Shown here: positions 22,071 through 39,469 of the stretch, in pieces
Layout of the letters: each line of letters starts with the position of its first letter
Numbering within the stretch: position 1 is the stretch's first letter
Origin: a virus
Reading direction: 5' to 3' (one strand)
Length of the DNA stretch: 64,000 nucleotides
IMG/VR virus record: IMGVR_UViG_3300008952_000004
Location: 1 to 64,000 of that record
Notes under the pieces: generated by a model
Database searches by the model: none
The model's input: the letters and a program-made list of their open reading frames with translations, nothing else
What the model was told of the DNA's origin: nothing
Program-made: the position numbers and the translations under genes

Positions 22071-22859
22071 ATGTCTCATATATCATTTTCAGAGTTGAAA
22101 AATTGGGATCATTGCGCTCACTATCACAAACTGGTGCATATTGATAAACTGAAGGGGTTTGAGGGCAACGAATATACAGCCTTCGGCTCAGCAGTTCATG
22201 ACGTATGTGAATATGCATTGTTAGCTGATGACTCTCCGGTAGAAGATTATAAACTGCTTTTTGAAAAAAGTTTTTTAGCTAATCTGAAGTCTCTTTCAAA
22301 AGAGGATTTAAATAAAAAATTAGTAACTTCGATGCGGACTCAAGCAACAAAAATAATTCCTGAGATTTTGCCTGCGGTAAAAGAATACTTTGGGGAATAT
22401 AGTGTTGTTTCAGTAGAAGAAAACATCTATGTTCCAATTCGTGAATTCGACGATGCCGATTATTCATTTAAAGGGTATATTGATCTGGTTGTTAAAACGA
22501 GCGATGGAAAATATCATGTCATCGATTGGAAAACTTGTTCTTGGGGATGGGATTCTAAGAAGAGAACAGATCCAATGATTAATTATCAATTAACTTTTTA
22601 TAAGCACTATTTTGCTATTAAGCACGGCATTGAACCAGCAAACATCGAAACACATTTTGCCTTGTTGAAGAGAACTGCAAAAAGTAATCTTGTAGAGATA
22701 TTCCGTGTTACTTCCGGTAAGAAAAAAACTTCAAACGCTATTAAATTATTAGTAAAGGCGTTATATAATATAACAAATAAGAAGTATGTAAAAAATCGCT
22801 TGGCTTGCCATGGCATATATGGTGACTGCGACTTTTACAACACAAAACACTGTAGGTAA
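22071..22859 (+). CDS. PD-(D/E)XK nuclease (Cas4/AddB-like)
   Basis: ISFSEL..W..C, FGSAVH, KGYIDLVV...VIDWKT, YQL.FY, C-terminal C...CDF...C Fe-S-type cysteines. Confidence 0.85.
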   Translation: MSHISFSELKNWDHCAHYHKLVHIDKLKGFEGNEYTAFGSAVHDVCEYALLADDSPVEDYKLLFEKSFLANLKSLSKEDLNKKLVTSMRTQATKIIPEILPAVKEYFGEYSVVSVEENIYVPIREFDDADYSFKGYIDLVVKTSDGKYHVIDWKTCSWGWDSKKRTDPMINYQLTFYKHYFAIKHGIEPANIETHFALLKRTAKSNLVEIFRVTSGKKKTSNAIKLLVKALYNITNKKYVKNRLACHGIYGDCDFYNTKHCR

Positions 22860-22863
22860 AAAA

Positions 22864-25394: not shown

Positions 25395-25397
25395 AGA

Positions 25398-27044
25398 ATG
25401 AAATATGTTTTAATATCCGATTATCTGCCCCGCGAAGTAATCGGGGGCTGCGAAATAAATAATCAAGAGCTAGTTCTCTTATTAAAAAAGAGACAAAGAG
25501 ACATTTTTGAGATAAAATCATCCCAAGTGGACTTAGAATTTATTTCCAAGAACAAAGAATCTTTTTTCATTGTTTCTAATTTTATCGAACTCTCTGAGGC
25601 TTCGCGTGCTGAATTATTAAAATATAAATACATAATCTATGAACATGACCACAAATATTTGGTTAATAGAAACCCCGCCATCTTTTCAGGTTGTCGCGCT
25701 CCAGTTAGCCACATAGCAAATGAGTATTTTTATGCTGGAGCACAAGCGGTATTATGTCAGACCAATTTTCACGCTGAAATATTATACAGAAATTTAGCGT
25801 TGCCAAACGTTATTTCTTTGGGTGGTAATCTTTGGTCTGATGACATATTGGATTTGTTGGAGGAATGTGCTTCTTGTGCAAAGAGTACAGGGGCAACGGT
25901 TATGTCCTCTCCTATTGCTCATAAAAATACGATTGGAGCTATTAACTATTGCGAAGAGCAGGGCTATTCTTATAATTTAATTGCATCAAACAATCAAAAA
26001 GTTTTTCTTAAAGATTTAGCGAAACAGGAAAAGTTTATCTTTTTGCCCAAGACTCCGGAAACCCTTTCTCGTGTTGTCTGTGAAGCCCGAATGATGGGGG
26101 TTAACGTTGTGACCAATGGTCTGGTCGGCGCCACAAAAGAACCTTGGTTTTCTCTTAAAGGAAAAGAATTGGTTAATTTTATGAGACAGAAAAAACAAGA
26201 GATAGTGGACCTAGTTGAAGGAATTTTTCTCGAAACCGCTAACAAGGGTGAATTCGCTCTCAAGAACAAACTTGTGTCTGTTGTCATGCCAGCTTATAAT
26301 GATCAAGAGTATGTTTCACAGGCTATAGAAGATTTGATTAAACAAACATATTCGAATATCGAAGTTATTATTGTTGATGATGGATCCACAGATTCAACAG
26401 CAGAAATTTGCCAAAAATATGCAGAGGAATATGATTTCATCAGATTTTATAAAAAAAACAACGGCGGCACGGGCAGTGCCTTGAACTTTGGATTCGAAAA
26501 AGCTACGGGTGATTATGGGACTTGGGTTTCGTCTGATGACAGAAGACCGGCTAACTGCATAGAAAGAATGGTACGTGCCTTGGAAAATAATAATGTTGAG
26601 TTGGTTTTTGCTGCGTATCTTAGTGAGAGATTTAATAGAGCGTGGCGCTCTTATACACCGTCTAATAATGCTTTAGGATACCAGTGGGCAGAAAATGGTT
26701 TTACTTGGGAGGGCACACCATCAAAAGAAACATTTGTTGTCGACAACTGGGTCGATCTCAATCTACATCATTGTCACTCTGGTGTTTCTTTTTTGTTTAC
26801 CAAGGATTTAAAAAAACGCTCTGGTGAATATCTTAATCTCCCAGGTGAAGATTATCATATGGAAGTAAAGATGGGGATGTTAGCAAAAGAAAACAAAGTG
26901 GCTTACATTGATGAGGTCCTTGGCTGGCACAGGTTTCCACCAACCTCTTTGACGTCGACAGATGCCAGTTGTGTATTTGAGGCGGAAAAAATAACTAAAA
27001 ATATGATCTTAGAATGGAAAGAAACAGGCGTGGTTAATGGGTAA
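25398..27044 (+). CDS. bifunctional glycosyltransferase (GT-B-like N-domain + GT2 C-domain)
   Basis: ETLSRVVCEARMMG in N-half; VSVVMPAYN...IIVDDGSTD...NGGTGSALN...WVSSDD in C-half. Confidence 0.85.
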   Translation: MKYVLISDYLPREVIGGCEINNQELVLLLKKRQRDIFEIKSSQVDLEFISKNKESFFIVSNFIELSEASRAELLKYKYIIYEHDHKYLVNRNPAIFSGCRAPVSHIANEYFYAGAQAVLCQTNFHAEILYRNLALPNVISLGGNLWSDDILDLLEECASCAKSTGATVMSSPIAHKNTIGAINYCEEQGYSYNLIASNNQKVFLKDLAKQEKFIFLPKTPETLSRVVCEARMMGVNVVTNGLVGATKEPWFSLKGKELVNFMRQKKQEIVDLVEGIFLETANKGEFALKNKLVSVVMPAYNDQEYVSQAIEDLIKQTYSNIEVIIVDDGSTDSTAEICQKYAEEYDFIRFYKKNNGGTGSALNFGFEKATGDYGTWVSSDDRRPANCIERMVRALENNNVELVFAAYLSERFNRAWRSYTPSNNALGYQWAENGFTWEGTPSKETFVVDNWVDLNLHHCHSGVSFLFTKDLKKRSGEYLNLPGEDYHMEVKMGMLAKENKVAYIDEVLGWHRFPPTSLTSTDASCVFEAEKITKNMILEWKETGVVNG

Positions 27045-28104
27045 AAAAATAATAGTGACGGTCACCGGGATACGACCAGATTTCATTCGTATGTCAGAGG
27101 TGTTTCGAAAATTGGACAATGACGATGCATTCGAACACATATTAATACACACGGGACAACACTACGATGATCTTTTATCCGGTGTGTTTTTTAAAGATCT
27201 TGAAATAAGAGAGCCTGATTATAACTTGTCTATTGGCGGGGAAGGTCGATCACATCACCACCAACAGGCAGAACTTTCAGTAAGAATACTTGAGCTATTC
27301 GAACAACGAAAGATTAATCCAGATATTGTGTTATTTTTAGGAGACAGTAATTCAGTATTAGCATCAGTGCCGGTGCGTAAGCAGGGCTTTAAAGTTGGAC
27401 ATATTGAAGCAGGGATGCGTAGTTATGATGAAAGAATGCTAGAGGAGATCAATAGAAAAGTATGTGATCACGTTAGTAACTTCTTGTTTGTTTATCATGA
27501 AAACTATAAGAAAAAAGCCCTTAGAGAAGGAATTCCGGAGGGTAGAATATATGTTGTAGGAAACACAATTGTTGAGCCATTGCGTAAGATAGCGGACTTA
27601 GAATATAGAGGCACAAAAAAACATATCCTTTTAGATATTCATAGACCAGAAAACTTTTTATACCCCAAACGTCTTAAAGCAATAATTGAATATGCAAACA
27701 GATATTCGAAGATATTCACCACTCCGGTTAAAATGCTTTCATTTGGAAGAACAGAAGAAGCCCTGAAAAAAAATAATATAGATTTAGGGGAAATTCAAAC
27801 GGTACCATTAATGGGATATAAAGATTATGTTAGAGCACAGCAAGATAGTCGGTTTATCATAAGCGATAGTGGTACTGCACAAGAGGAACCAGCGCTTCTT
27901 GGCGTTCCTGTGATAGTACCAAGGGAATTTACAGAGCGTCCGGAATCCGTTGAAAACGATTGTAGCTTTATGCTAAAGTTTAATGAGAATTCGTTTATTG
28001 ATTCAGTTGATTGGGTTATGACACACATAAGAGCACATACCGATTGGCTTGGGAATGGCGATGCTTCACAGATGATTGTTGATATATTAAGGGAGCAGCT
28101 ATAA
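27037..28104 (+). CDS. wecB: UDP-N-acetylglucosamine 2-epimerase (non-hydrolysing)
   Basis: GIRPDFIRM, HTGQHYD, GHIEAGMRS, EEINR, VGNT, HRPEN, SDSGTAQEE, TERPE. Confidence 0.92.
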   Translation: MGKKIIVTVTGIRPDFIRMSEVFRKLDNDDAFEHILIHTGQHYDDLLSGVFFKDLEIREPDYNLSIGGEGRSHHHQQAELSVRILELFEQRKINPDIVLFLGDSNSVLASVPVRKQGFKVGHIEAGMRSYDERMLEEINRKVCDHVSNFLFVYHENYKKKALREGIPEGRIYVVGNTIVEPLRKIADLEYRGTKKHILLDIHRPENFLYPKRLKAIIEYANRYSKIFTTPVKMLSFGRTEEALKKNNIDLGEIQTVPLMGYKDYVRAQQDSRFIISDSGTAQEEPALLGVPVIVPREFTERPESVENDCSFMLKFNENSFIDSVDWVMTHIRAHTDWLGNGDASQMIVDILREQL

Positions 28105-28862
28105 TGAAAATTATTGGATTTTCCCAACTCCGTAATGAATTATCGAATGGAAATTTAGAAAATTGGTTTCGTTGTATGAACTTTTGCGATTATATATACA
28201 TATATGACCAAGCATCAGACGATGGAAGTAAAGAGTACTATAAAAAATATAAAAACACTGTTGTGATTGAATCACCAGTTAACGACTTTGAACGAGAAAT
28301 AACTTGTAAAGATATTCTTCTAAGGCGCGTCTTAAATGACCACCCAGATACAGATTGGATTTATTGGATCGACGGGGATACCATATTAGACGGAAGGATG
28401 TTGAGAAATGGTCATAGAGAGATATACAATATTCTAGAACAAGCTTCAGCCCAAAAAATTGACGCGATAGTTATGGGGCATTATAATTTATGGCGAAGTG
28501 ACATATATCATCGTGTAGACAACGATTATGATTGGTTTCACAGAAACGGTCGCCGTGTTTTTTGGAGGAACAACGGGCTGCTAAAGTTTGTCGATAATGG
28601 CGGGCTACACCAACCTCAATTTCCGCAGGGGTTATTAAAACAAGTCCGAATTGATAGAGATTTAATCCACCGTGGTTTTGCAACTGACGAACAAATCATG
28701 AATAGATACAATTTATATAAATCAAAGGGGCAAACTGGTCCAATGTTAGAAAGGTTGATTGACGAGACAGGATTACAGGTTAAAAGTATCCAGAGCGACA
28801 TATTTCCCGATTGGTATAAAACTGATGATGTACTCAACCCTTCAGAGAAAAAGAGGCTTTAA
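28104..28862 (+). CDS. glycosyltransferase family 2-like
   Basis: YDQASDDGS and WIDGD (DxD) motifs. Confidence 0.7.
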   Translation: MKIIGFSQLRNELSNGNLENWFRCMNFCDYIYIYDQASDDGSKEYYKKYKNTVVIESPVNDFEREITCKDILLRRVLNDHPDTDWIYWIDGDTILDGRMLRNGHREIYNILEQASAQKIDAIVMGHYNLWRSDIYHRVDNDYDWFHRNGRRVFWRNNGLLKFVDNGGLHQPQFPQGLLKQVRIDRDLIHRGFATDEQIMNRYNLYKSKGQTGPMLERLIDETGLQVKSIQSDIFPDWYKTDDVLNPSEKKRL

Positions 28863-29479
28863 TGTATGATAAAATCATTATTTCGCCACATGTGGATGAT
28901 GATGTACTTGGTTGTGGTGGTATATTAGACGAGAAATCATTAGTATTATATTGCGGTATTGATGATTTCCACGTTGTGAGTCGCGAGGAACGCATAAAGG
29001 AAGCAGACGCTGCCTCAGAAGTCTTGGGACACTCTTATATCATACTCCACGGAAATAAGGTTAATAGATATTTAGCAAATGATCTTATTGATGACTTTTC
29101 GAACTTTATTAATATGCATAAACCACAGCAGATTTTTATACCCTATCCTTCATATAATCAAGACCACCGGGCGGCATATGAGGCAGCGCTCATCGCGTTA
29201 CGACCTCACGATATAAATTTTTTTGTTAAAGAGGTGCTGGTATATGAACAGCCACATGTATTTTTTTGGGATCATACTCATACAATAGGTTCTGGATTTA
29301 AACCGAACTATTATGTGCCTATCAATATAGAAAGAAAAAAAGATGCATATAAAATGATGGCATCACAGAATAGAACATTTCGCAGTGTAGAACATATTGA
29401 TGCTTTAGCAACGTTACGCGGCGGTCAATCTGGGTGTACACACGCAGAAGCATTTCAAGCAATTAGGGTGGTGAAATAG
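28862..29479 (+). CDS. PIG-L/LmbE family N-deacetylase
   Basis: SPHVDDDVLGCGG, R..EA, NQDHR, EAF. Confidence 0.88.
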   Translation: MYDKIIISPHVDDDVLGCGGILDEKSLVLYCGIDDFHVVSREERIKEADAASEVLGHSYIILHGNKVNRYLANDLIDDFSNFINMHKPQQIFIPYPSYNQDHRAAYEAALIALRPHDINFFVKEVLVYEQPHVFFWDHTHTIGSGFKPNYYVPINIERKKDAYKMMASQNRTFRSVEHIDALATLRGGQSGCTHAEAFQAIRVVK

Positions 29480-30160
29480 ATGTCAAAAATTTTATTTTGT
29501 GGATATCGCCCATGGGCAAAAGAAATATATTATAATATAACCCATGGGAACCAATATAAAATTAAATCTTCTATAAAATTAATAGAATCGATAGACGAGT
29601 TAGAAAAAGAAATGGAACTTGAGAAGCCAGAAGCTATATTTTTTGTTGGTTGGAGTTGGATTGTGAAAAAAAATATTGTTGATAATCATTTATGTATTTG
29701 TTTACATCCTTCGCCGCTGCCAAAATATAGAGGCGGTTCTCCGATACAACATCAAATAATCAATGGCGAAACAAAAAGCGCAGTCACTCTGTTTAAAATG
29801 GATGAACACATAGACCGTGGTGATGTGTTATTTCAATATCCTTTCTCATTAAATGGCAACCTAAAAGATATATTCCGTCGAATTGTCGACGTTGGTCAAT
29901 ACGGTATAAGAAGATTGATTAAACAGATCGACAGTCCATCAACACTTCAAGGGGCTGCTCAGGACAAAAAAGAGGCAACATATTTTAAGAGAAGAACGCC
30001 AGACATGAGTGAAATAAAAGTTGAAGATCTTCTTAACTGTTCAGCAAAACAGATATATAATAAGATACGAGCGTTACAAGATCCTTACCCAAACGCATAT
30101 ATTGTTTGCGGAGACGGGTCTAAACTTTATCTACAATACGCAGAGGTGGATGATGAATAA
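29480..30160 (+). CDS. formyltransferase (Fmt/sugar N-formyltransferase family)
   Basis: LHPSPLPKYRGGSPIQHQI, IDRGDV, IRAL.DPYPNA. Confidence 0.9.
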   Translation: MSKILFCGYRPWAKEIYYNITHGNQYKIKSSIKLIESIDELEKEMELEKPEAIFFVGWSWIVKKNIVDNHLCICLHPSPLPKYRGGSPIQHQIINGETKSAVTLFKMDEHIDRGDVLFQYPFSLNGNLKDIFRRIVDVGQYGIRRLIKQIDSPSTLQGAAQDKKEATYFKRRTPDMSEIKVEDLLNCSAKQIYNKIRALQDPYPNAYIVCGDGSKLYLQYAEVDDE

Positions 30161-30920
30161 AAATGTAGAAGTAGTTACTCTTGTATATAAATCTGTAAAA
30201 TATTTGCACTTCATATGCGATCAACTACAGAGCGATCTTTGTAAGGTTGATGGATGGGATGTTGGCGTCCGTGTTGTAGCAAATGATGCTACACCAGAAG
30301 TATTAAAAGAGTTGGAGAATGTGGACATTAAATATTCTATATTTGATAACCCCGATCCAAACGAATTTTATTTAAACAGGGTATATCGTGCGTACAACTA
30401 TGCTGTCACCTCAAGCGAATATGACAATGTATGCTTGGTTAATTCGGACGATGTTTTTTGTAAGGACTGGTTGGCTAACCTGTTAAAACATCATGATGGG
30501 GTCAATATTCCTTGTAGCCGATTAATTGAGAGTGGTAAAATGGATAGCGGGATGCACGGCGTTAACCTCATGAGGGTGGAGGGAGAACATTTTGGTCGCC
30601 ATCCAGATGAATTTGATATGGAGCGCTGGCTTTCATATGCTGAAAAAATAAAAGAAAACCGCATTGAACCACGTGGATTGTATATGCCCTGTGTTTTAGA
30701 AAAAGATCGGGTCATCGAAAGCGGACTATACCCGGAAGGAAACGTATTTCTTGAACCACCCAACAAATTGATGATTGGATATCCTAATGACAGACCCGTG
30801 TGGCGCGCAGGAGATGATTTTTATTTTCATTATGTTCTAGAGCCGAAATACGGTATGAAACACATAACTGTTTTTGATTCACCGGTATATCATATTATTG
30901 AAGGAGAAAAGGACGAATAA
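30153..30920 (+). CDS. glycosyltransferase family 2-like (GT-A)
   Basis: Likely start 30153 after GAGGTG; VRVVAND, VNSDD (DxD), WLANL, YH near C-terminus. Confidence 0.65.
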   Translation: MNKNVEVVTLVYKSVKYLHFICDQLQSDLCKVDGWDVGVRVVANDATPEVLKELENVDIKYSIFDNPDPNEFYLNRVYRAYNYAVTSSEYDNVCLVNSDDVFCKDWLANLLKHHDGVNIPCSRLIESGKMDSGMHGVNLMRVEGEHFGRHPDEFDMERWLSYAEKIKENRIEPRGLYMPCVLEKDRVIESGLYPEGNVFLEPPNKLMIGYPNDRPVWRAGDDFYFHYVLEPKYGMKHITVFDSPVYHIIEGEKDE

Positions 30921-30921
30921 A

Positions 30922-31719
30922 ATGTATTATAACGGAAAATGGGACAACCCAAAAGTTGTGATGTACTGTCAAATTGGTGGTGCGTTAGATATGGCTAAAT
31001 TTGCAGTTGAAAGCGCAATCGAGAATAGTGGCATGCCGGATGAAGATGTGGATATTGTCTTTATTTGCTGGAAGACAGCACCAGAGGTGTATGAATGGCT
31101 GGAGAAAAAAAACTTTAAGTATGTTGATATTGGATATGACGAAGGGAAGGGCTTCTTGTGGAATCTGTATCGTGGCTGGAATGCTGGGTATGAGATAGCA
31201 TACGAGTATACAGATTATATCTGCCCTATTGCTACGGATCATTACTTTCATAAAGACTGGTTGGCTAATATGTATAAGCACGCCAAGTCAAATCGAATTG
31301 TTAATTGCAAACTGATTGAGCCGGGAACCTTGCCCTCTTTGCACACTTGTAGAGATTTTGGTCTGACCCTTCATAATAGTTTTAAGAAAGAAGAGTTTCT
31401 TGAGTTCGCGAACAAATTTTGTGAACTGAGCAAGGACCAGCTTGCGACTGATGAAATAGAGTATGGACATCGATTTGATGCGATGCCTTTTATTTGCGCT
31501 AAAGATGTTTGGCAAAGATTTGGACCAATGTCCAAAGTACTCGTACATGGAAGTCCAGACCCAGAGGGGGTTTTCATACACAATGTTACCGGTGACACAG
31601 ATTTTTTCAATCGTTGTAAATTTAATAACGTTGAGGTAGTAAAGGCGCTGGACGCTCTGAGTTACCACTGTGGCGGTCTAGAAACACAGATTAACAAACA
31701 ACGCGGAGTGTACACGTGA
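30922..31719 (+). CDS. glycosyltransferase family 2-like (GT-A), paralog of preceding gene
   Basis: Shared blocks with 30153 gene (..LYRxxN, D..F.KDWLAN, C.LIE.G, GD..FF, YH). Confidence 0.62.
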   Translation: MYYNGKWDNPKVVMYCQIGGALDMAKFAVESAIENSGMPDEDVDIVFICWKTAPEVYEWLEKKNFKYVDIGYDEGKGFLWNLYRGWNAGYEIAYEYTDYICPIATDHYFHKDWLANMYKHAKSNRIVNCKLIEPGTLPSLHTCRDFGLTLHNSFKKEEFLEFANKFCELSKDQLATDEIEYGHRFDAMPFICAKDVWQRFGPMSKVLVHGSPDPEGVFIHNVTGDTDFFNRCKFNNVEVVKALDALSYHCGGLETQINKQRGVYT

Positions 31720-32513
31720 GAATCGGCATAGTCGGCGTTGGCGTTGTGGGTTCCGCCATTAAATATGGTTTCGAGAAACTGGGGCACGATATATTTGTGC
31801 ATGATATTCGCCTAGGTACAACCCTAGAAGACGTACTACCCTCGGAGATATGTTTTTTGTGTTTACCAACACCATCTGATGAATTTGATCGCTGTGATAT
31901 CTCCATTGTAGAGGAGACAGTTTCTAGATTGTGCGATCTGAAGTATCAGGGTATCGTGGCTATTAAATCAACTGTATCACCGGGAACTACACAATCCCTT
32001 ATAAAAAAACATAAGTGGTATAATATTTGTTTTGTACCAGAATTTCTTAGAGAAAGATGTGCTTCTATTGATTTTGTCGAGAACCATGATGTATGTATAA
32101 TCGGCACAAATGAAGATTGGATATATGATAAGGTAGTATCCGCCCATGGAAAGTACCCGCAGACCTTTTGTCGCTTGACTCCGACAGAAGCTGAATTGTC
32201 TAAGTATTTTAATAACATTTATAATGCAACTCTGATCACATTTGCAAATAGTTTTTTTGAAGTGTGTGAGGCAGTCGGCGCCGATTATACTAATGTAAAA
32301 AATGCGATTACAACTCGAACACATATTCAGGATATATATCTTGATTGTAATAAAAACTTTAGGGGCTTTGGCGGCATGTGCTTACCCAAGGATACTAAAG
32401 CTATAGCCGCACTTTGTAAAGAAAGAAACATCAGTGTGAACTTTTTCAAATCACTTTTGGAAGAAAATAACAAATATAAAATAACAGTGTTTGAAGGGAT
32501 GAGGTTAAAATGA
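31716..32513 (+). CDS. ugd: UDP-glucose/UDP-ManNAc 6-dehydrogenase (lacks C-terminal domain)
   Basis: GVGVVG, CLPTP, KSTVSPGT, PEFLRE, KYFNN, GFGGMCLPKD; only 265 aa. Confidence 0.85.
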   Translation: MRIGIVGVGVVGSAIKYGFEKLGHDIFVHDIRLGTTLEDVLPSEICFLCLPTPSDEFDRCDISIVEETVSRLCDLKYQGIVAIKSTVSPGTTQSLIKKHKWYNICFVPEFLRERCASIDFVENHDVCIIGTNEDWIYDKVVSAHGKYPQTFCRLTPTEAELSKYFNNIYNATLITFANSFFEVCEAVGADYTNVKNAITTRTHIQDIYLDCNKNFRGFGGMCLPKDTKAIAALCKERNISVNFFKSLLEENNKYKITVFEGMRLK

Positions 32514-33238
32514 GTAGAGAAAAAAAGATGAAAATTTTGATTCCGTTAGCAGGCGCCGGTTCTCGATTCTTTAAGGAAGGGTATACAGATCCGAAACCTC
32601 TTATTGATGTTGCAGGAAAGCCAATGATACGTCGGGTTATTGAAAATATTGACATGCCAGAAATGGAACACATCTTTATTGTTCAAAAGTCACACATTGA
32701 AAAGTATCCTAAAATTAAAGAATATCTTAGTGGCTGCGTCCGACGGGCTACGCTAGTTGAGATTGATGGTTTGACTGAAGGGGCAGCTTGCACAACCTTA
32801 TTAGCAGAAGAATACCTAGATGACAGTCCGCTCCTTATTGTGAATTCGGATCAATGGGTTGACTGGGTACCATCACACTTTGTTAACTTTTGCAAAGATT
32901 TGGACGGCTGCATTCCTTTCTTTTTATCAGACAGTCCAAAGCACTCATACTCTAGAGTGAACTACGAAACGGGTTTGGTAACTCAGGTCGCAGAAAAGCA
33001 GGTTATAAGTAATTTTGCCACAGTCGGGATATATTATTGGAAAAGTGGAAAAGAATATATCGATTGTGTTAAAGAGATGATTCGCAAAGACATCAGATTC
33101 AACAATGAATTTTACATTTGTCCCGTCTATAACATTTTGATAAATTCTAGAGGCGGGCAGGTAAAACCTTATCCAGTGTTTGAAATGAGGGGAATGGGAA
33201 CTCCCCAGGAACTAGAAAAATTTATAAATAAACTTTAA
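32510..33238 (+). CDS. sugar nucleotidyltransferase, BcbE-like
   Basis: ILIPLAGAGSRF..EGY..PKPLIDV.GKPMI, TEGAACT, NSDQ, AEKQVIS..ATVGIYYW, NNEFYICPVYN, GMGTP. Confidence 0.85.
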   Translation: MSREKKMKILIPLAGAGSRFFKEGYTDPKPLIDVAGKPMIRRVIENIDMPEMEHIFIVQKSHIEKYPKIKEYLSGCVRRATLVEIDGLTEGAACTTLLAEEYLDDSPLLIVNSDQWVDWVPSHFVNFCKDLDGCIPFFLSDSPKHSYSRVNYETGLVTQVAEKQVISNFATVGIYYWKSGKEYIDCVKEMIRKDIRFNNEFYICPVYNILINSRGGQVKPYPVFEMRGMGTPQELEKFINKL

Positions 33239-33252
33239 TTAAGGAGAAATAG

Positions 33253-34443
33253 ATGCGCTTGTTTAAGAGCCTTAAAGAAATTGATTTAGACAAATATATT
33301 ATTTGCACTTATTATTTGCAATCAAGCACTACGCTTCGTGACGCGGCTTGGGCTCTGGCAATCGGACAAAGTGTGGGCAATCCAAATGTAAGAAATCGCT
33401 GGGAAACAGATAAATTGTTTGAAGAACATTCTTGTCTGATCGTTGGGACAGAGGAATCCCTTGCATCCGTCAAAGCGGGCACAATCCAAATCGCTTTTCC
33501 TATTGTGAACACGGATTTCAGAACTGATGGCGTTTCACATCTACTCTGTCAGTTTATGGGTGGACAAATGGACATTGATATAGTTGAAAAGTGTCATCTA
33601 AATAAAGTTGAAATACCAAAAAGAATAGAACAGAAATATTTTCTTAAACCAAAATATGGAATTGACGGTATTAGAAAGTTTACTGGCGTCGGCGAAAAAC
33701 CACTACTTGGCGGCATCGTCAAGCCAAAAATTGGTGTAGATAGCAGGGTATTATTAGAGATGGTCAAAGAGATGGTTCAGGGCGGAGTGAACTTCATTAA
33801 AGAGGACGAAATAATGTCAAACCCTGCTTGTTGCCCGATAGAAGAAAGAGTGCCTCTGATCATGGAATATATTAAAGATAAAAATGTAATTTATTCAGTT
33901 TGTGTTAATAGCGACCCGGCACAGGTAATTGAACGGGTCAAAAAAGTTCACAGTATGGGAGCTAATTCGATCCATATAAATTTTTGGAGCGGCTTGGGAG
34001 TATATAAATCAATTCGAGAATTGGACTTACCCTTATTCATACATTTTCAAAAAAGCGGCGACAAAATTTTAACAAACAAAGAACACGCTTATCATATTTC
34101 TTGGGATGTTATTTGTGATTTGGCTGGACTAATGGGTGTTGATTTTATACATGCCGGTATGTGGGGTGGGTATATGTCAGACAACGAAACCTCACTTAGA
34201 CAAACATTACAAATTTTACATAATAGACAGGTGATGCCAGCGCTAAGTTGTGGGATGCATCCCGGTCTTGTGCAAGCAATTAATGAAAAGTTTGGTGTGA
34301 ATTACCTTGCCAATGTCGGCGGCGCCCTCCACGGTCATCCGAAAGGAACACTTGGCGGGGCAATGGCAATGCGGCAAGCAATCGATAATACTCCATCAGA
34401 GGAATATAATATTGCAATTGATAAGTGGGGCTTGATCAAATGA
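33253..34443 (+). CDS. RuBisCO-like protein (form IV, RLP)
   Basis: GIVKPKIG (K175/K177), GGVNFIKEDE (carbamylation motif K201-D203-E204), DFIHAG, PALSCG, VGGALHGHPKG; lacks H294 and K334 equivalents. Confidence 0.92.
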   Translation: MRLFKSLKEIDLDKYIICTYYLQSSTTLRDAAWALAIGQSVGNPNVRNRWETDKLFEEHSCLIVGTEESLASVKAGTIQIAFPIVNTDFRTDGVSHLLCQFMGGQMDIDIVEKCHLNKVEIPKRIEQKYFLKPKYGIDGIRKFTGVGEKPLLGGIVKPKIGVDSRVLLEMVKEMVQGGVNFIKEDEIMSNPACCPIEERVPLIMEYIKDKNVIYSVCVNSDPAQVIERVKKVHSMGANSIHINFWSGLGVYKSIRELDLPLFIHFQKSGDKILTNKEHAYHISWDVICDLAGLMGVDFIHAGMWGGYMSDNETSLRQTLQILHNRQVMPALSCGMHPGLVQAINEKFGVNYLANVGGALHGHPKGTLGGAMAMRQAIDNTPSEEYNIAIDKWGLIK

Positions 34444-34880
34444 TCGTGATTTCCCATAGGGGATATGAAAGTGGGGAAAATGATAAGTTGGAGAATAACC
34501 CTCTCCAGATAAGAAGGCTTTTGAGTATGGGCATAGATGTAGAGATAGATGTGTCATATGACGGTCGTTTTTTCCTGGGACACAATAGTGGCAAGTATGA
34601 AATCGATATTGATTTTTTAAAACAGGACGGGCTCTGGTGTCACGCAAAAGATAGTCTGGCATTTGAACTGATGCTGCAAAGCGGTGTGCACTGTTTTTGG
34701 CATCAGTGTGACGACTATACTTTGACCAGCCGAGGCATAATCTGGGCTTATCCCTCAAAAGACTTGCACAATCTGCATCAATCGGTGTTATTATTTCCAG
34801 AAAATATCCCCGGTGGATTAACAAGTGCTCAGCGGGAAAATCTTTACGCGATATGTACTGATTTTCCGTTTCTATATTAG
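34440..34880 (+). CDS. short GDPD/PLC-like phosphodiesterase-fold protein
   Basis: MIVISHRG...EN...G.DVEIDV...LGH...LWCHAK...FWHQ.DDYTLTS.G.IWAYP. Confidence 0.65.
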   Translation: MIVISHRGYESGENDKLENNPLQIRRLLSMGIDVEIDVSYDGRFFLGHNSGKYEIDIDFLKQDGLWCHAKDSLAFELMLQSGVHCFWHQCDDYTLTSRGIIWAYPSKDLHNLHQSVLLFPENIPGGLTSAQRENLYAICTDFPFLY

Positions 34881-34892
34881 GAGTAATTTTTT

Positions 34893-35633
34893 ATGAAAGT
34901 TGGAACAGTAATAACAATGTATGACGAACATCCGATTGCTCTTAAAAGCGTGACGGAAATAAAAAAAACGATACCAGATAGTACAATCATACTGGTGCAC
35001 TCAGATGATTGTCAAGAAACATCAGAATTAATAGCCCTCAAGGAGATGGTTACTGAATATATAATATTACCGGACATGTCTAAGGTGTTGACTAATCAAC
35101 AAGCACTGGGCGCCAATTGTATTGCTAGAAATTATAGTGCTGGATTTAAATCCCTTTATTCGTTGGGAAAACAATATGACCTAGTTGTGGCTTTGACAGC
35201 GGACACTCTTATAACCGACGGGGAATCATTTTCTAGGCGTCGGGAGGAAATGCTCCGCACCGAGCGTACAGCCTTGGTGTCACAGGCTATAGGACAGAAT
35301 TTCCATGCAGTAGCCAAGGATGGAAGTCGAATTGTTGAGGGTCGCCATCAGAGTCCTGAAATAACTGACTTTATGCCGCAGCTTTTTTTTCTTGACGGCA
35401 GTTTTGCAGCGAAACAAAGGGCGTTCGAAGACGTTGAAGTTACAAATCCGTATGCGTCGGAACAGTGTCTGGGCGATAACTTAGTTAATTGCTTGACAAA
35501 AGAAGATAAAACGTTCTATAATAGTGTTGGTAGATTAAACTGGTTCTCTCCTACATTCGCATATGCTTATGCAGATGGCGCGGAGTATCATGCATTGCAC
35601 GGCGGCATTCCAGCGGGAAGAGAAATAAAATGA
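34893..35633 (+). CDS. hypothetical protein, possibly GT-A fold
   Basis: RBS AGGAG; VITMYDE, ILVHSD, ALTADT; within glycan operon. Confidence 0.5.
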   Translation: MKVGTVITMYDEHPIALKSVTEIKKTIPDSTIILVHSDDCQETSELIALKEMVTEYIILPDMSKVLTNQQALGANCIARNYSAGFKSLYSLGKQYDLVVALTADTLITDGESFSRRREEMLRTERTALVSQAIGQNFHAVAKDGSRIVEGRHQSPEITDFMPQLFFLDGSFAAKQRAFEDVEVTNPYASEQCLGDNLVNCLTKEDKTFYNSVGRLNWFSPTFAYAYADGAEYHALHGGIPAGREIK

Positions 35634-36664
35634 AAAAAGTAATTATTACCGGTAGTCAAGGGTTCATAGGTTCTTATCTATGTACAGAATTTTTAGAAAG
35701 AGGATATGAAGTTGTGGGTATTGACAACTATTCCAAATATGGGGTGGTTAAAAGAGCACACGACAATCATCCAAACTTTTCTTTGTTTGAAATGGACATA
35801 TGTGAGCTAAATTCTAAAAAGGTGCAACCCCACCCATCATTTGCCGACGCTGATTATATTATAGCCAATGCAGCAATGATTGGCGGCATTAGTTACTTTC
35901 ACAAATATGCATACGACTTGTTGGCTACTAATGAGAGAATTTTAGCCTCGACATTTGATTTGGCTATCAGGCTTCATAAAGAATATAATTTAAAAAGAAT
36001 TCTTGTCTTGTCTAGTAGTATGGTATTCGAAAACACTAACAGATACCCAACTCCGGAGTACGAAGTGGAGACTTGCTCTCCACCCGCAAGTACATATGGC
36101 TTTCAGAAACTGGCATCGGAGTATTTTTGCCGAGGGGCTTATGAACAATATAAATTACCATATACAATTATAAGACCCTTTAATTGTGTCGGTATAGGCG
36201 AAGAAGAAGCAGTTGGCGAAGATGTCGTTATGTCGGGGAACATTAAAATGTTAATGAGCCATGTTCTCCCTGATCTGATTCATAAATCATTATTGTTAAG
36301 CCCCAACGATGCTTTGCCAATCCTTGGGGATGGTACACAGATTCGTCATTATACAAACGGTAAAGACATTGCAAAGGGGGTTAGAATTGCCCTAGAATCA
36401 GAAAAAGCAGTTAATGAGGATTTTAATATTTCATCCCCAGAGGCAACCACGGTTGCAGAATTAGCTGATCTTGTTTGGCAAAAAATTCACAATACAAAGG
36501 TTAAGTTTGAACATTGCCAGCCGTTTGAATATGATGTACAAATTAGAAGTCCGGACGTCAATAAAGCTAAAGATATTTTAGGTTTTATAACAGAAGTGAC
36601 TTTAGAGGAAAGTGTTGATGAGGTCATAGAATGGATGAGGAAACAAAATGAAAAATCTAGTTGA
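35630..36664 (+). CDS. NAD-dependent sugar epimerase/dehydratase (extended SDR)
   Basis: ITGSQGFIG, NAAMIGG, LSSSMVFE, YGFQK (YxxxK), IRPFN. Confidence 0.9.
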   Translation: MKKVIITGSQGFIGSYLCTEFLERGYEVVGIDNYSKYGVVKRAHDNHPNFSLFEMDICELNSKKVQPHPSFADADYIIANAAMIGGISYFHKYAYDLLATNERILASTFDLAIRLHKEYNLKRILVLSSSMVFENTNRYPTPEYEVETCSPPASTYGFQKLASEYFCRGAYEQYKLPYTIIRPFNCVGIGEEEAVGEDVVMSGNIKMLMSHVLPDLIHKSLLLSPNDALPILGDGTQIRHYTNGKDIAKGVRIALESEKAVNEDFNISSPEATTVAELADLVWQKIHNTKVKFEHCQPFEYDVQIRSPDVNKAKDILGFITEVTLEESVDEVIEWMRKQNEKSS

Positions 36665-36995
36665 TAAAATTATTAAAGAAGCAATACATAAATATGATGG
36701 AAGCTATACTTTGGATAACCCATTTGAAGAAATGATGAGCTTTGGGGAGTTGGTTGACCGATTATCAATTGTTAATTTCAAACTTTTTACTCTAAAAGAT
36801 GAGGTTATGAAACGTCCCGAAGATGACGACTTTAAGTCTTGGGCATCCGTTGAAGACGTTAAACTCGTTAAAGAACGTTCCCGACTTAAAAGATGCATTG
36901 ATGAGAAGATGGTTGCTATGATTACGCGAATCTCAGATGGAGACGCAAGTGGAGGATTTAATCCAGAAGTTAAAAAATATGGGGATAAAATATGA
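36648..36995 (+). CDS. hypothetical protein (DUF4254-like helical)
   Basis: GELVDRLSIVNFKL...ERSRLK..ID pattern. Confidence 0.55.
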   Translation: MKNLVDKIIKEAIHKYDGSYTLDNPFEEMMSFGELVDRLSIVNFKLFTLKDEVMKRPEDDDFKSWASVEDVKLVKERSRLKRCIDEKMVAMITRISDGDASGGFNPEVKKYGDKI

Positions 36996-37933
36996 AAATT
37001 TTAGTCGTAGGCGGCGCCGGTTACGTCGGTGGACATATGGTTGACCTCTTATCAAAGAATCATGATGTTACGGTATACGACCTTCTCTTATTCGAGAAGA
37101 GGTTTATGAAGCGAGTTAATTTTATTTATGGAGATGTGAGGGACACAGAAAAGCTAGGTACCATAATTAATGATTACGGTACTGTGGTGTGGCTAGCAGG
37201 TATGGTCGGCGACGGCGCATGCGCTGTAAATCCTGCCTTGACAACAGCAGTTAATTATGATTCAGTTAAGTGGCTTGTTGATAACTATAATGGAAGGATC
37301 GCTTTTCCATCAACTTGTTCAATCTATGGTATTAACAACGAACTTATTAATGAAGAGGCAAAACCAAATCCTTTGTCACTTTATGCCGCTACAAAACTTA
37401 AAGCAGAAAAATATATTCGAGCGAATGCGTCTGGTGAATATATTATCTTCAGGCTTGGTACTCTGTTTGGTTTAGGTGACGAGCATTCGCGTATACGACT
37501 GGACTTAGTAGCTAACATTCTTTCTATGCGCGCAGCTAAGGGACTTCCATTGACAGTATTTGGCGGCGAACAATGGCGACCCTTATTACATGTTAAAGAT
37601 GCTGCCCGAGCCTTTGTGTATGCAATAGAGAATAATGTTGCAGGTTATTATAATCTTTCGTACAAAAATTATACGATACAAAGTTTGGCAGAAGAAATAT
37701 CAGATTATATACCGAATACTGAGATTAAATATGTAGATATGCCGTTTGAGGATTTAAGAAATTACAAAGTTAATAATTCTAAGTTCTCGGAATATGATTG
37801 GAAACCCAAATATTCCCTTAAAAACGGGGTCGAAGAAGTGTATAATCTTATTATCCAACAAAGAATTAAGGATACAAACGATATGATATATTCAAATGCT
37901 AGATATATAAAGGAAATCGAGGGAGACAAATAA
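36992..37933 (+). CDS. NAD-dependent sugar epimerase/dehydratase (extended SDR)
   Basis: VVGGAGYVGG, LAGMVGD, STCSIYG, YAATK, FRLGTLFG, RPLLHVKD. Confidence 0.9.
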   Translation: MKILVVGGAGYVGGHMVDLLSKNHDVTVYDLLLFEKRFMKRVNFIYGDVRDTEKLGTIINDYGTVVWLAGMVGDGACAVNPALTTAVNYDSVKWLVDNYNGRIAFPSTCSIYGINNELINEEAKPNPLSLYAATKLKAEKYIRANASGEYIIFRLGTLFGLGDEHSRIRLDLVANILSMRAAKGLPLTVFGGEQWRPLLHVKDAARAFVYAIENNVAGYYNLSYKNYTIQSLAEEISDYIPNTEIKYVDMPFEDLRNYKVNNSKFSEYDWKPKYSLKNGVEEVYNLIIQQRIKDTNDMIYSNARYIKEIEGDK

Positions 37934-38355
37934 TGGGTATTCAATTGATTGAAGGTGGAATGTTCGCTGATGATCGCGGCAAATTGAGGTTTGTGAATGG
38001 GTTTGATTTTTCTAATGTGAAAAGATTTTATCAAGTGGAAAATCATCGTCAAGGGTTCATACGGGCTTGGCACGGACATGTAAAAGAGGGGAAGTATGTT
38101 TATGTGGCTAGCGGTACCGCTCTGGTTGGCGCCGTCCCACTGGACGATGATACTGTCACACCTAAGAAATATGTTTTAACTTCTGAAAAGCCACAGGTTT
38201 TGTGGATTCCTCCGAATCACGCTAATGGGTTTATGAATCTTGAAGAAGGTACAGTTATATTGTTCTTCTCAACTTCTACCTTAGAAGAGAGTAAGGGGGA
38301 CGATATTAGATTTCCTTATGACAAGTGGAACATTTGGGAGGAGGATTATCGATAA
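37933..38355 (+). CDS. rmlC: dTDP-sugar 3,5-epimerase / cupin (RmlC-like)
   Basis: F.DDRG, RAWHGH, LWIPP..ANGF, D.RFPYD.W. Confidence 0.8.
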   Translation: MGIQLIEGGMFADDRGKLRFVNGFDFSNVKRFYQVENHRQGFIRAWHGHVKEGKYVYVASGTALVGAVPLDDDTVTPKKYVLTSEKPQVLWIPPNHANGFMNLEEGTVILFFSTSTLEESKGDDIRFPYDKWNIWEEDYR

Positions 38356-38645
38356 TGACTTTTAAACAATACTATGATTATTATTTAAGCTTACACCAAA
38401 ACAAATGGACCCGTCGCTTACACGTTATGGGGCAGGCGGCAACAGTCTTATTTGTTATTTTGTGTGTATCTAAAGGCGCTTGGTTAGCACTCTTATTTGC
38501 CCCTTTTGTTGTGTATCCTTTCGCTTGGAGCGGTCATTTCTTTTTTGAGAAAAATATACCGGCTGCTTTTTCTAAACCCATCTGGGCTAAAGCGTGTGAT
38601 TGGCTAATGTTAAGAGATATTATTTTTGGGAGAATAAAATGGTAA
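38355..38645 (+). CDS. DUF962/Mpo1-like membrane protein
   Basis: F..YY..YL..HQN...RRLH..G...Y.FAW.GHFFFEKN.PAAF..P.W...CD..M. Confidence 0.8.
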   Translation: MTFKQYYDYYLSLHQNKWTRRLHVMGQAATVLFVILCVSKGAWLALLFAPFVVYPFAWSGHFFFEKNIPAAFSKPIWAKACDWLMLRDIIFGRIKW

Positions 38646-39469
38646 AAGTACTAATTCTTGGAAGCACCGGCATGCTCGGCAATGCTGTTGGCAAGTGGTT
38701 TTCTAAACAGTCTGACCGGTATGAAGTGACATTCACTCACAGGGATTATGATTTAGCTAGCACATATTATGAAGACAAAAATCTTCTTCATTTTGATTGT
38801 TTGGAGGATAAGTTAGTTGATCTTGATTTATCTGGGTATGATTATGTCATTAATTGTATTGGTACAATTAAACCATTTATGTCCTCAAACCCACTATCTG
38901 CAATTAAAATAAATTCTGTTTTTCCCTGGACACTGGCTTGTGTCTGCAAGGGCGCAGGCGCAAAGCTGATTCACATTACAACTGATTGCGTATATTCAGG
39001 GGCGGTAGGACAGTATACTGAAGATGATGAGCACGATGCGCGAGATGCATATGGAAAAAGTAAGTCTCTCGGCGAACCAGATAACTGTATGGTACTGAGA
39101 ACGAGTATTATTGGCGAAGAAGTTCATAAAAACGCTAGCTTGATTGAGTGGGTAAAAAGTCAACGAGGCAACACAGTCAATGGCTATATTAACCACGACT
39201 GGAATGGAATCACAACCACTCAGTATGCGAAGACCTGCGACTATATCATTTCGAACGATATGTATGTTGAGGGTACGTACCACGTGATGTCGCCGAAACC
39301 AGTCAATAAATATGAGCTTGTTACTCTGCTCGGACAGAAATATAATTTAGATCTAACGGTCAATGAATTCGAAGCATCGATTAGAGTTGATCGCACACTT
39401 GGAACTGTAAAGAGTTTGTGTGGGGATTTGAACATACCATCCATCCAACAACAAATAGCGGAGATGTAA
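38639..39469 (+). CDS. rmlD: dTDP-4-dehydrorhamnose reductase (RmlD-like SDR)
   Basis: LGSTGMLG, VINCIG, IHITTDCVYSG, YGKSKSLGE, LRTSIIG; likely start ATG 38639. Confidence 0.88.
   Translation: MVKVLILGSTGMLGNAVGKWFSKQSDRYEVTFTHRDYDLASTYYEDKNLLHFDCLEDKLVDLDLSGYDYVINCIGTIKPFMSSNPLSAIKINSVFPWTLACVCKGAGAKLIHITTDCVYSGAVGQYTEDDEHDARDAYGKSKSLGEPDNCMVLRTSIIGEEVHKNASLIEWVKSQRGNTVNGYINHDWNGITTTQYAKTCDYIISNDMYVEGTYHVMSPKPVNKYELVTLLGQKYNLDLTVNEFEASIRVDRTLGTVKSLCGDLNIPSIQQQIAEM

What the first reader, a model, noticed from the sequence alone, without database searches (positions are those of the whole stretch)
32510..34880. RuBisCO-like protein embedded in a viral glycan operon with a BcbE-like nucleotidyltransferase and a GDPD-like protein: candidate undescribed sugar-building module
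The 396-aa RLP keeps K175, K177 and the K201-D203-E204 Mg/carbamate site plus H327 and S379, but by-eye alignment shows N123G, H294Q, R295K and K334Y, so it should enolise but not carboxylate (seen). Characterised RLPs catalyse enolisation-based tautomerisation, isomerisation or decarboxylation of phosphorylated ketoses/acid sugars in salvage and catabolism; BcbE/KfoE-like proteins are linked to ketose (fructose) decoration of capsules (established). Inference: here the RLP is used biosynthetically, making an unusual ketose or branched sugar phosphate that the neighbouring nucleotidyltransferase activates and the GDPD-like protein processes before transfer onto the phage glycan. This three-gene module in a virus is the strongest candidate for a new system in the window.
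Basis: partly seen in the sequence, partly recalled or inferred. Interest (0 to 1): 0.87.

Follow-up and report, generated by a model that had tools for sequence, protein, structure and literature searches.

The report
Phage RuBisCO-like enzyme in sugar-activation cassette
A 190-kb phage carries an intact RuBisCO relative that cannot fix CO2 and is wired to a sugar-activating enzyme and a miniature phosphodiesterase; related viruses put ordinary sugar-phosphate enzymes in its place, so it most likely prepares a sugar phosphate for a surface glycan, a job not yet described for this enzyme family.

Summary
Window 32510-34880 encodes three coupled genes: a nucleotidyltransferase (NTase), a 396-aa RuBisCO-like protein (RLP) and a 146-aa mini-GDPD.

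- **RLP active site:** it keeps the Mg/carbamate site, H327 and the proximal phosphate loops. E60, T65, W66, N123, H294, R295, H298 and K334 are replaced by family-invariant residues, so it is not a carboxylase.
- **Phylogeny:** it forms its own clade, apart from MtnW, OiaX-like and form III proteins. This appears to be the phage 'form IV-like' clade of Jaffe et al. 2019, whose function is unknown.
- **Recurrence:** the triad is in 30 of 30 viral loci, phages and giant-virus MAGs, in at least eight gene orders, and in SAR11. DPANN archaea pair RLP and NTase with a full-size GDPD-like gene. NTase-RLP fusions exist in both orders.
- **New here:** NTase plus mini-GDPD is a widespread viral cassette, also present in cultured Synechococcus phages. 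The partner next to or fused with the NTase is interchangeable: beta-PGM-like HAD (55 of 80 loci), RpiB (10), RLP (5), or a DHBP-synthase domain.

I infer that the RLP enolises or isomerises a sugar (probably pentulose) phosphate for nucleotide activation. The chemistry is untested. This scan had already noted the RLP-NTase pairing on other genomes.

The parts
32510..33238 (+). Sugar-phosphate nucleotidyltransferase (242 aa) with the canonical GxGxR...PKPL signature. It is the only PF00483 gene in the 189.7-kb phage.
   Evidence: Pfam PF00483 1.1e-10. Best PDB match 4EVW, 2.6e-15. phrog_3980 1.4e-59. Single copy in the genome. Same lineage as the NTases fused to HAD, RpiB, a DHBP-synthase domain or RLP.
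33253..34443 (+). RuBisCO-like protein (396 aa) of the phage 'form IV-like' clade. The enolisation site is kept; the carboxylation and distal-phosphate residues are replaced.
   Evidence: AAGGAG ribosome-binding site 8 nt upstream.
34440..34880 (+). Mini-GDPD (146 aa): a stripped glycerophosphodiester-phosphodiesterase-like barrel with a full catalytic motif set. Its ATG overlaps the RLP stop (ATGA). The longest ORF starts at a GTG at 34425.
   Evidence: phrog_34507 3e-17.
34893..35633 (+). Unknown 246-aa protein directly after the mini-GDPD. It is not conserved with the cassette.
   Evidence: No Pfam, NCBIfam, PHROG or PDB hit. Not related to the cassette's GT-A family c4. Only a weak Atlas lead to GT2-like clusters.
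35630..36664 (+). SDR epimerase/dehydratase-type enzyme (344 aa), a candidate for processing the NDP-sugar.
   Evidence: PF01370 3e-35. An SDR lies in 27 of 51 RLP neighbourhoods.
22810..39469 (+). The surrounding glycan operon. It holds two GT4s, a GT2, UDP-GlcNAc 2-epimerase, a PIG-L deacetylase, a formyltransferase, a UGDH-like gene, the cassette, two SDRs, an RmlC/FdtA-like cupin (37933-38355), an Mpo1-like gene and an RmlD-like gene (38600-39469).

Best explanation
The ORF is an intact, non-carboxylating RuBisCO-like enzyme that acts as the 'feeder' of a mobile cassette: feeder, sugar-phosphate nucleotidyltransferase and mini-GDPD.

Shown:
- The enolisation machinery is conserved: the K201 carbamate/Mg site, K175, K177, H327 and the proximal phosphate loops.
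- The residues needed for CO2 addition, C-C cleavage and distal-phosphate binding are replaced by other, family-invariant residues.
- The gene is always beside or fused to one NTase lineage.
- That same lineage is beside or fused to a beta-PGM-like HAD, RpiB or a DHBP-synthase domain in other viruses.
- A GT-A glycosyltransferase family (c4) and a 107-aa cupin often travel with the cassette.

Inferred:
- The RLP uses enolisation to isomerise or epimerise a phosphorylated ketose, most likely a pentulose phosphate that carries a phosphate next to the carbonyl.
- The NTase converts the product into an NDP-linked sugar, ketose or polyol.
- The mini-GDPD acts on the resulting phosphodiester or pyrophosphate bond. 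It either transfers the phospho-sugar to an acceptor or trims it.
- The operon's SDRs and GTs build the product into a glycan.
For: - **Residue pattern and family invariance:**
- **Own clade:** 42 rows, SH-like support 99, apart from MtnW, OiaX-like and form III proteins.
- **Family size:** more than 120 clusters at 65-90% identity in metagenomes.
- **Fusions:** NTase-RLP (P0032) and RLP-NTase (P0125), in both orders.
- **Recurrence:** the triad is in 30 of 30 viral loci, spans 2.3-6.8 kb and occurs in at least eight gene orders. SAR11 has mini-GDPD, NTase2, RLP and NTase1 in that order. DPANN archaea and a Verrucomicrobium have RLP and NTase1 plus NTase2 with a full-size GDPD-like gene.
- **Interchangeable feeder:** No locus has both RLP and HAD.
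- **Cultured phages:** Bellamy has an NTase-RpiB fusion (PF02502, 3.9e-32). S-SKS1 has an NTase-DHBP_synthase fusion (PF00926, 5.4e-65). S-CAM9 has a HAD-NTase fusion. S-SM2 has a class II aldolase beside the mini-GDPD.
- **NTase tree:** RLP- and HAD-linked NTases interleave, with at least 2 and parsimoniously 6 switches.
- **Glycan context:** c4 has a GT-A fold resembling GT6/GT8 enzymes. The mini-GDPD is fused to HAD, NTase, GT61, methyltransferases, Ribul_P_3_epim and a PMI-type cupin.
Against: - No biochemical data exist for any member. Substrate, nucleotide and product are unknown.
- The feeders do not share one obvious product. A HAD may be a mutase or a phosphatase, and RpiB/LacAB enzymes also act on hexose phosphates.
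- The RLP keeps the proximal (C1) phosphate site, whereas Ru5P and Xu5P carry only a distal phosphate. This fits a ketose-1-phosphate or an NDP-linked substrate better.
- The window clade lacks the cupin and c4 that most viral RLP cassettes have.
- One phage (L007) has both a HAD and an RLP, each with its own NTase.
- The window's NTase could simply feed the RmlB/C/D-like genes downstream.
- Gene neighbourhood and fusion show functional linkage, not the order of the steps.
Confidence: 0.55

Rival explanations
1. The RLP acts after the NTase. The NTase first makes an NDP-linked ketose, as AbpA makes CDP-xylulose (recalled from the literature, not tested here). The RLP then epimerises or isomerises this NDP-ketose by enolisation, and SDRs or GTs use the product.
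For: Fusions in both orders fit either direction. The proximal phosphate loops are kept while the distal site is remodelled to K, D and Q, which could hold a phosphate that carries a nucleotide. SDRs are common neighbours.
Against: The enzymes that replace the RLP in sister cassettes are a beta-PGM-like HAD, RpiB, a DHBP-synthase domain and a class II aldolase. By what is known of these families, they act on free sugar phosphates and not on NDP-sugars.
Confidence: 0.2
2. The cassette does not serve a glycan. It makes or degrades a small nucleotide-linked metabolite, for example a signal, a salvage intermediate or an anti-defence molecule. The mini-GDPD would be the hydrolase.
For: The mini-GDPD has a complete phosphodiesterase motif set. 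The cassette is self-contained and mobile across phages, giant viruses, bacteria, archaea and chytrid fungi.
Against: It is embedded in GT-rich operons in the window and in cultured cyanophages. It co-travels with the GT-A family c4. The mini-GDPD is fused to GT61 and to sugar O-methyltransferases.
Confidence: 0.12
3. The RLP is a methionine-salvage or 5-deoxyribose-salvage type enzyme, an MtnW-like DK-MTP-1-P enolase or an MTRu-1-P isomerase, carried as an auxiliary metabolic gene.
For: The best solved relative is the Geobacillus DK-MTP-1-P enolase 2OEJ (6.6e-36). Families that recur around sister cassettes (class II aldolase, HAD, cupin) are also the folds of MtnB, MtnX/MtnC and MtnD (the parallel is from general knowledge).
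Against: It forms a separate clade from true MtnW. Its scores are far below the MtnW cut-offs. Its constant partner is an NTase and not mtn genes. H327 and the distal K267 are kept, unlike the corresponding positions in the aligned enolase.
Confidence: 0.05
4. It is a true CO2-fixing RuBisCO.
For: The RuBisCO fold and the carbamate/Mg site.
Against: K334, H294, R295, H298, N123, E60, T65 and W66 are all replaced. The form III model scores 167 bits against a cut-off of 497.
Confidence: 0.01

Closest known systems
'Form IV-like' RuBisCO-related proteins of phages and Beckwithbacteria (Jaffe, Castelle, Dupont & Banfield, Mol Biol Evol 2019, PMC6389311)
   Same: These are phage-encoded RLPs on large myovirus-type contigs, partly from IMG/VR. 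They are highly divergent, keep only some canonical residues, and branch outside the classical form IV groups. This matches the clade found here.
   Different: The passages read leave function open and do not mention a nucleotidyltransferase or GDPD context, fusions or giant-virus, SAR11 or DPANN members. I did not compare with their sequences directly.
DK-MTP-1-P enolase MtnW/YkrW (form IV-YkrW RLP; PDB 2OEJ, 2OEK, 2ZVI)
   Same: Same fold. It is the best solved relative (6.6e-36). It shares K175, K177, K201, D203 and E204 and the proximal phosphate loops. It is also a non-carboxylating enolase.
   Different: The clades are separate. Scores are below the family cut-offs. The window protein keeps H327 (FIHAG) where the enolase has FPSPYG. 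The genomic context is biosynthetic, not methionine salvage.
CDP-pentitol and CDP-ketose pathways (TarI/TarJ CDP-ribitol; AbpA/AbpB CDP-xylulose to CDP-arabinitol; Campylobacter CDP-6-fructose to CDP-6-glucitol), recalled from the literature and not tested here
   Same: The logic is the same: a ketose or pentulose phosphate from central metabolism is activated by a PF00483/IspD-type NTase and processed by an SDR for a surface polymer.
   Different: None of these pathways uses an RLP or a GDPD-like protein. The NTase here is only distantly related (IspD 0.005).
Glycerophosphodiester phosphodiesterases (GlpQ/UgpQ, PF03009)
   Same: The mini-GDPD shares the barrel (Z up to 10.6) and the HRG, EN, ExD and GHD catalytic motifs.
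   Different: It is about 60% of the size (146 aa against 220-250). It has no Pfam hit. Its substrate is unknown, and it sits in sugar-activation cassettes rather than in lipid or teichoic-acid catabolism.
Bifunctional PMI-GMP enzymes (AlgA/ManC type: NTase plus C-terminal cupin isomerase)
   Same: Giant-virus versions of the cassette's NTase carry the 107-aa cupin at their C terminus. A sugar-phosphate isomerase coupled to an NTase follows the same principle.
   Different: The window's NTase has no cupin. The cupin family differs (weak Cupin_7 hit only). An RLP is added.

Membership tests
Bona fide RuBisCO (forms I-III carboxylase) | Carbamylated K201 with the D203/E204 Mg site, plus K175 and K177 | tested here: met
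   K183, D185, E186, K157 and K159.
Bona fide RuBisCO (forms I-III carboxylase) | Loop-6 K334, H294, R295, H298, and N123, E60, T65 and W66 from the partner subunit | tested here: not met
   They are Y307, Q266, K267, D270, G104, G38, N43 and P44, and are invariant in the family. TIGR03326 scores 167 bits against a cut-off of 497.
RuBisCO large-subunit superfamily (PF00016) | Score above the Pfam gathering threshold | tested here: met
   112 bits against 30.1.
MtnW / DK-MTP-1-P enolase (TIGR03332, NF007095) | Score above the equivalog cut-off | tested here: not met
   132 and 159 bits against cut-offs of 513.6 and 409.
MtnW / DK-MTP-1-P enolase (TIGR03332, NF007095) | Placement in the MtnW clade | tested here: not met
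   True MtnW (P0204, 652 bits) lies in a different starred clade.
OiaX 3-oxo-isoapionate-4-P decarboxylase (NF042437) | Score above the cut-off, and placement in the clade | tested here: not met
   115 bits against 700. The OiaX-like P0246 clade is separate.
Phage 'form IV-like' RLP clade (Jaffe et al. 2019) | Phage-borne, divergent from forms I-IV, groups with other phage RLPs | tested here: met
   A viral clade of 25 rows with support 99, and 30 IMG/VR loci. The description was checked.
Phage 'form IV-like' RLP clade (Jaffe et al. 2019) | Direct sequence match to the paper's own sequences | not tested
   Their sequences were not on hand.
Sugar-phosphate nucleotidyltransferase (PF00483) | Pfam threshold met and the N-terminal GxGxR...K signature present | tested here: met
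   42 bits against 21.2. The signature reads LAGAGSRF...PKPL.
BcbE/KfoE capsule proteins | Homology to BcbE or KfoE, and a link to fructosylation | not testable with these tools
   No reference sequence was available. The nearest solved relative, 4EVW, is uncharacterised.
GDPD (PF03009) | Pfam or sequence-profile match | tested here: not met
   No Pfam hit for 18 members. Only the first 50 residues match PDB GDPDs, at E 0.013.
GDPD (PF03009) | GDPD barrel fold with the catalytic His/Arg, Glu/Asp metal ligands and second His | tested here: met
   pLDDT 94. Z 8.0-10.6 to 21 GDPD entries over 136-141 of 146 residues. H6, R7, E18, N19, E35, D37 and H48 are invariant.

The most novel reading that the evidence does not exclude
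A whole clade of the RuBisCO superfamily has a biosynthetic role. It would work as an enolisation-driven pentulose-phosphate isomerase or epimerase that feeds a nucleotide-activated pentulose or pentitol into viral and microbial glycans. It would sit in a modular cassette whose mini-GDPD is a new kind of phospho-sugar transferase. RLP, RpiB, a DHBP-synthase domain and HAD enzymes would then be analogous, swappable entry points to one pathway.
Probability: 0.35. Interest if true: 0.85.

Novelty: new variant of a known kind. Interest (0 to 1): 0.72.

Why it matters
All RuBisCO-like proteins characterised so far, to my knowledge, work in salvage or catabolism. A large, environmentally abundant clade tied to nucleotide activation in glycan loci would give the superfamily a biosynthetic function. 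That clade spans marine and freshwater phages, giant viruses, SAR11 and DPANN archaea. It would also explain why phages carry 'RuBisCO' genes without fixing carbon.

The swap between RLP and ordinary sugar-phosphate enzymes narrows the search for the substrate. Sister cassettes also sit in cultured Synechococcus phages (S-CAM9, S-SM2, Bellamy, S-SKS1), so the pathway product can be looked for experimentally now.

Tried and rejected
- **DNA search:** a search of the region against 50,697 GenBank phage records found no match.
- **RLP in cultured phages:** tblastn of the RLP against the same records found no match. No phage record in that collection carries this RLP.
- **Pfam, NCBIfam, PHROGs and PDB sequence search on o246 (34893-35633):** nothing. 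A profile comparison with the cassette's c4 family showed no relation (probability 0.3). The Atlas gave only a weak GT2 lead.
- **Foldseek on the mini-GDPD:** only weak rows (best E 0.007). The VIA-align search was needed.
- **The 107-aa cupin, c4 and HAD families:** sought in the whole 189.7-kb phage and absent. The window clade therefore has the minimal cassette.
- **Strict RLP/HAD exclusivity:** rejected. L007 has both, each with an NTase. L015 and L016 have a distant HAD about 5 kb away.
- **Literature searches:** rubisco-like combined with phage, nucleotidyltransferase, cytidylyltransferase, polysaccharide or giant virus found no paper linking an RLP to an NTase.
- **Control genomes of the genome search:** these gave no labelled reference sequences, so clades were labelled with NCBIfam instead.
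- **My NTase HMM:** it was built from a single-linkage cluster that also took in some full-size GDPD-like ORFs of DPANN. The long-branch 'degenerate' outgroup, and some '<nt' symbols for DPANN, are probably those ORFs.
- **Complex prediction:** not run, because the report does not claim physical binding.
Full report
**Setting.** The window is the first 64 kb of a 189,713-bp virus record that CheckV rates 100% complete. It encodes PhoH, a tape-measure-like protein and a baseplate wedge protein. Its baseplate protein is most like those of Microcystis and Flavobacterium myophages. A long + strand operon runs from about 22.8 to 39.5 kb. It holds two GT4s, a GT2, UDP-GlcNAc 2-epimerase, a PIG-L deacetylase, a formyltransferase, a UGDH-like gene, two SDRs, an RmlC/FdtA-like cupin and an RmlD-like gene. 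GC content is even across it.

**The observation.** The three ORFs are as described.
- The NTase start overlaps the upstream stop as ATGA.
- The RLP has an AAGGAG 8 nt upstream.
- The ATG at 34440 of the third gene overlaps the RLP stop as ATGA.
- The RLP passes Pfam RuBisCO_large (112 bits). It fails every NCBIfam equivalog by a wide margin: form III 167 against 497, MtnW 132 against 514 and 159 against 409, OiaX 115 against 700.
- Its best solved relative is the Geobacillus DK-MTP-1-P enolase (6.6e-36).

**Active site.** I aligned the RLP with bona fide form III enzymes, two of which are fused to ribose-1,5-bisphosphate isomerase.
- Kept: K175, K177, K201, D203, E204, H327, S379, G381 and G403/G404.
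- Replaced: E60G, T65N, W66P, N123G, H294Q, R295K, H298D and K334Y.
- Every replacement is invariant or nearly so across 51 family members. The motifs are GQSxGNP, GGQxDI, QKSGD, DFIHAGMWGGY and SCG.
- The changed residues are therefore under selection, not decay.
- From established RuBisCO chemistry, the kept set suffices for Mg-dependent enolisation of a ketose with a phosphate beside the carbonyl. The lost set is needed for CO2 addition, hydration and cleavage, and for binding the distal phosphate.

**Family and phylogeny.**
- More than 120 clusters at 65-90% identity exist in marine and other metagenomes.
- A search of 1.84 billion representatives gave 68 proteins at E of 1e-30 or better.
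- A FastTree of 127 rows puts the family in its own clade (42 rows, support 99). Inside it are a viral clade (25 rows, 99) and a cellular clade of SAR11, DPANN archaea and a Verrucomicrobium.
- NCBIfam labels place true MtnW (P0204), OiaX-like (P0246) and form III (P0164, P0173) proteins elsewhere.
- This fits the 'form IV-like' phage clade of Jaffe et al. 2019, whose function was left open.
- No GenBank phage record holds the gene.

**The third gene.**
- It has no Pfam hit.
- A profile of 18 homologues matches the first 50 residues of GDPDs (E 0.013).
- The AF2 model is confident (pLDDT 94).
- The 21 best VIA-align rows are all GDPD-family entries, with Z 8.0-10.6 and 136-141 of 146 residues aligned across the whole barrel.
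- H6, R7, E18, N19, E35, D37, H48, H68, K70, H88, D91 and E121 are invariant.
- It is a miniature but apparently catalytic GDPD.

**Recurrence.**
- All 30 IMG/VR loci that hold an RLP relative also hold the NTase and the mini-GDPD. These loci include phages and giant-virus MAGs.
- The triad spans 2.3-6.8 kb and occurs in at least eight gene orders and orientations.
- SAR11 genomes have mini-GDPD, NTase2, RLP and NTase1 in that order.
- DPANN archaea and the Verrucomicrobium have RLP and NTase1, plus a second NTase-like gene with a degenerate GxGxR signature. That gene is adjacent or fused to a full-size GDPD-like gene.
- NTase-RLP and RLP-NTase fusions both exist.
- A 107-aa cupin with a 2-His-1-Glu motif lies in 27 of 30 viral loci. 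It is free-standing, or fused to the NTase in giant-virus MAGs. It is absent from the window, from L001-L003 and from the cellular loci.

**The main new result.** I started from the mini-GDPD instead of the RLP.
- In the 80 loci kept, the gene beside or fused with the same NTase lineage varies:

| Partner of the NTase | Loci (of 80) |
|---|---|
| beta-phosphoglucomutase-like HAD (38 fused as HAD-NTase; one of the 55 also has a DHBP-synthase-like domain fused to an NTase) | 55 |
| RpiB, fused as NTase-RpiB | 10 |
| RLP | 5 |
| None found, partly at contig ends | 10 |

- No locus has both RLP and HAD.
- Cultured Synechococcus phages carry these sister cassettes:
  - S-CAM9: HAD-NTase, a second HAD, the mini-GDPD and three c4 paralogues.
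  - S-SM2: a tandem NTase, GT61, a class II aldolase, a small HAD, the mini-GDPD and c4.
  - Bellamy: the S-SM2 set plus NTase-RpiB (PF02502, 3.9e-32) and the cupin.
  - S-SKS1: NTase-DHBP_synthase (PF00926, 5.4e-65).
- A small cellular genome has HAD, NTase, cupin and GT2, plus an NTase-mini-GDPD fusion, without an RLP.
- A eukaryote-like contig encodes NTase, mini-GDPD, HAD and an NTase-like domain in one 782-aa protein.
- On an NTase-domain tree, RLP- and HAD-linked NTases interleave, with at least 2 and parsimoniously 6 switches.
- The frequent companion c4 folds as a GT-A glycosyltransferase resembling GT6 and GT8 enzymes.
- The mini-GDPD is also found fused to HAD, YrbI-type HAD, NTase, GT61, several methyltransferases, Ribul_P_3_epim, a PMI-type cupin, a kinase and ACP. 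It also occurs in chytrid fungi.

**Interpretation.**
- Shown: the RLP is a conserved, selected, non-carboxylating member of the superfamily. It is functionally tied to one NTase lineage and a mini-GDPD inside glycan loci. It is replaceable by enzymes that act on free sugar phosphates, most of them from the pentose-phosphate pool (RpiB, DHBP synthase, ribulose-phosphate 3-epimerase, class II aldolase).
- Inferred: the RLP works at the sugar-phosphate level, before nucleotide activation. It would isomerise or epimerise a ketose phosphate by enolisation.
- Two precedents from established knowledge support this. RuBisCO's own misprotonation makes xylulose bisphosphate. The Rhodospirillum RLP shifts the carbonyl of a ribulose-1-phosphate derivative.
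- The kept proximal phosphate site argues for a phosphate, or a nucleotide diphosphate, next to the carbonyl. This keeps alive the rival in which the RLP acts on the NDP-ketose.
- The role of the mini-GDPD is the least certain. Its fusions to GTs and methyltransferases suggest that it acts on the activated product or the polymer, for example by transferring a phospho-sugar with release of NMP. This is inference only.
- In the window, the single NTase may also feed the downstream RmlB/C/D-like genes.

**Novelty and score.** Phage RLPs are known (PMC6389311). Follow-up notes of this scan on other genomes had already reported the RLP-NTase pairing and its presence in SAR11 and small archaea; I re-tested these points here. 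The following appear in none of the papers I could search: the identification of the mini-GDPD, the feeder-swap pattern, the presence of sister cassettes in cultured cyanophages, and the GT-A nature of c4. I rate the finding a new variant of a known kind, with high but not top interest, because the chemistry is still inferred.

Noticed in passing
P0207 (distant homologue, not in the window): A 583-aa protein fuses an N-terminal TIR domain (PF13676, 3.3e-13) to a complete RuBisCO-like large chain. This pairing of a defence-type signalling domain with an RLP is unexplained.
   Followed up: no
L142:6693-7004, L142:8334-8663, L145:12522-12830, L144:8380-8736 (cultured cyanophages S-SM2, Bellamy, S-SKS1): Genes annotated 'phosphoheptose isomerase' are only about 100-118 aa long. 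The three scanned by Pfam (L142:6693-7004, L145:12522-12830 and L144:8380-8736) match small HAD/PNKP-type phosphatase models, not SIS isomerases. The second S-SM2 gene, L142:8334-8663, was not scanned. The GenBank names look wrong.
   Followed up: partly
L143:7001-7456 (Synechococcus phage S-CAM9): The mini-GDPD ORF (152 aa, E 1.8e-55 to the family profile) is annotated only as a 95-aa hypothetical protein at 7172-7459, so the gene call appears truncated.
   Followed up: partly
window:31716-32513: The UGDH-like ORF is short (265 aa, GTG start). It matches only positions 66-302 of the 413-position nucleotide-sugar dehydrogenase model, so it lacks the first NAD-binding segment and the C-terminal domain. 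It may be truncated, split, or read from the wrong start.
   Followed up: no
window:29480-30160 and 30021-30920: The formyltransferase ORF matches its profile only from position 69 onward. It overlaps the next ORF (299 aa, no family hit) by about 140 nt. This may reflect a frameshift, an alternative start or a novel fusion partner.
   Followed up: no
window:38325-38645: A 106-aa Mpo1-like (PF06127, 1.7e-28) protein sits between the RmlC-like and RmlD-like genes of the glycan operon. Pfam names this family 2-hydroxy-palmitic acid dioxygenase Mpo1-like. It is an unusual member of a sugar operon.
   Followed up: no
window:21009-21692: A 227-aa ORF has a sub-threshold match (5.3e-5, 23.5 bits against a cut-off of 27.4) to the ATLF metalloprotease-type domain near its C terminus.
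   Followed up: no
P0507, P0509: Mini-GDPD domains occur in roughly 390-aa proteins of chytrid fungi (Spizellomyces, Gorgonomyces) and in a Homavirus giant-virus record. The domain therefore spans viruses and all three cellular domains.
   Followed up: no
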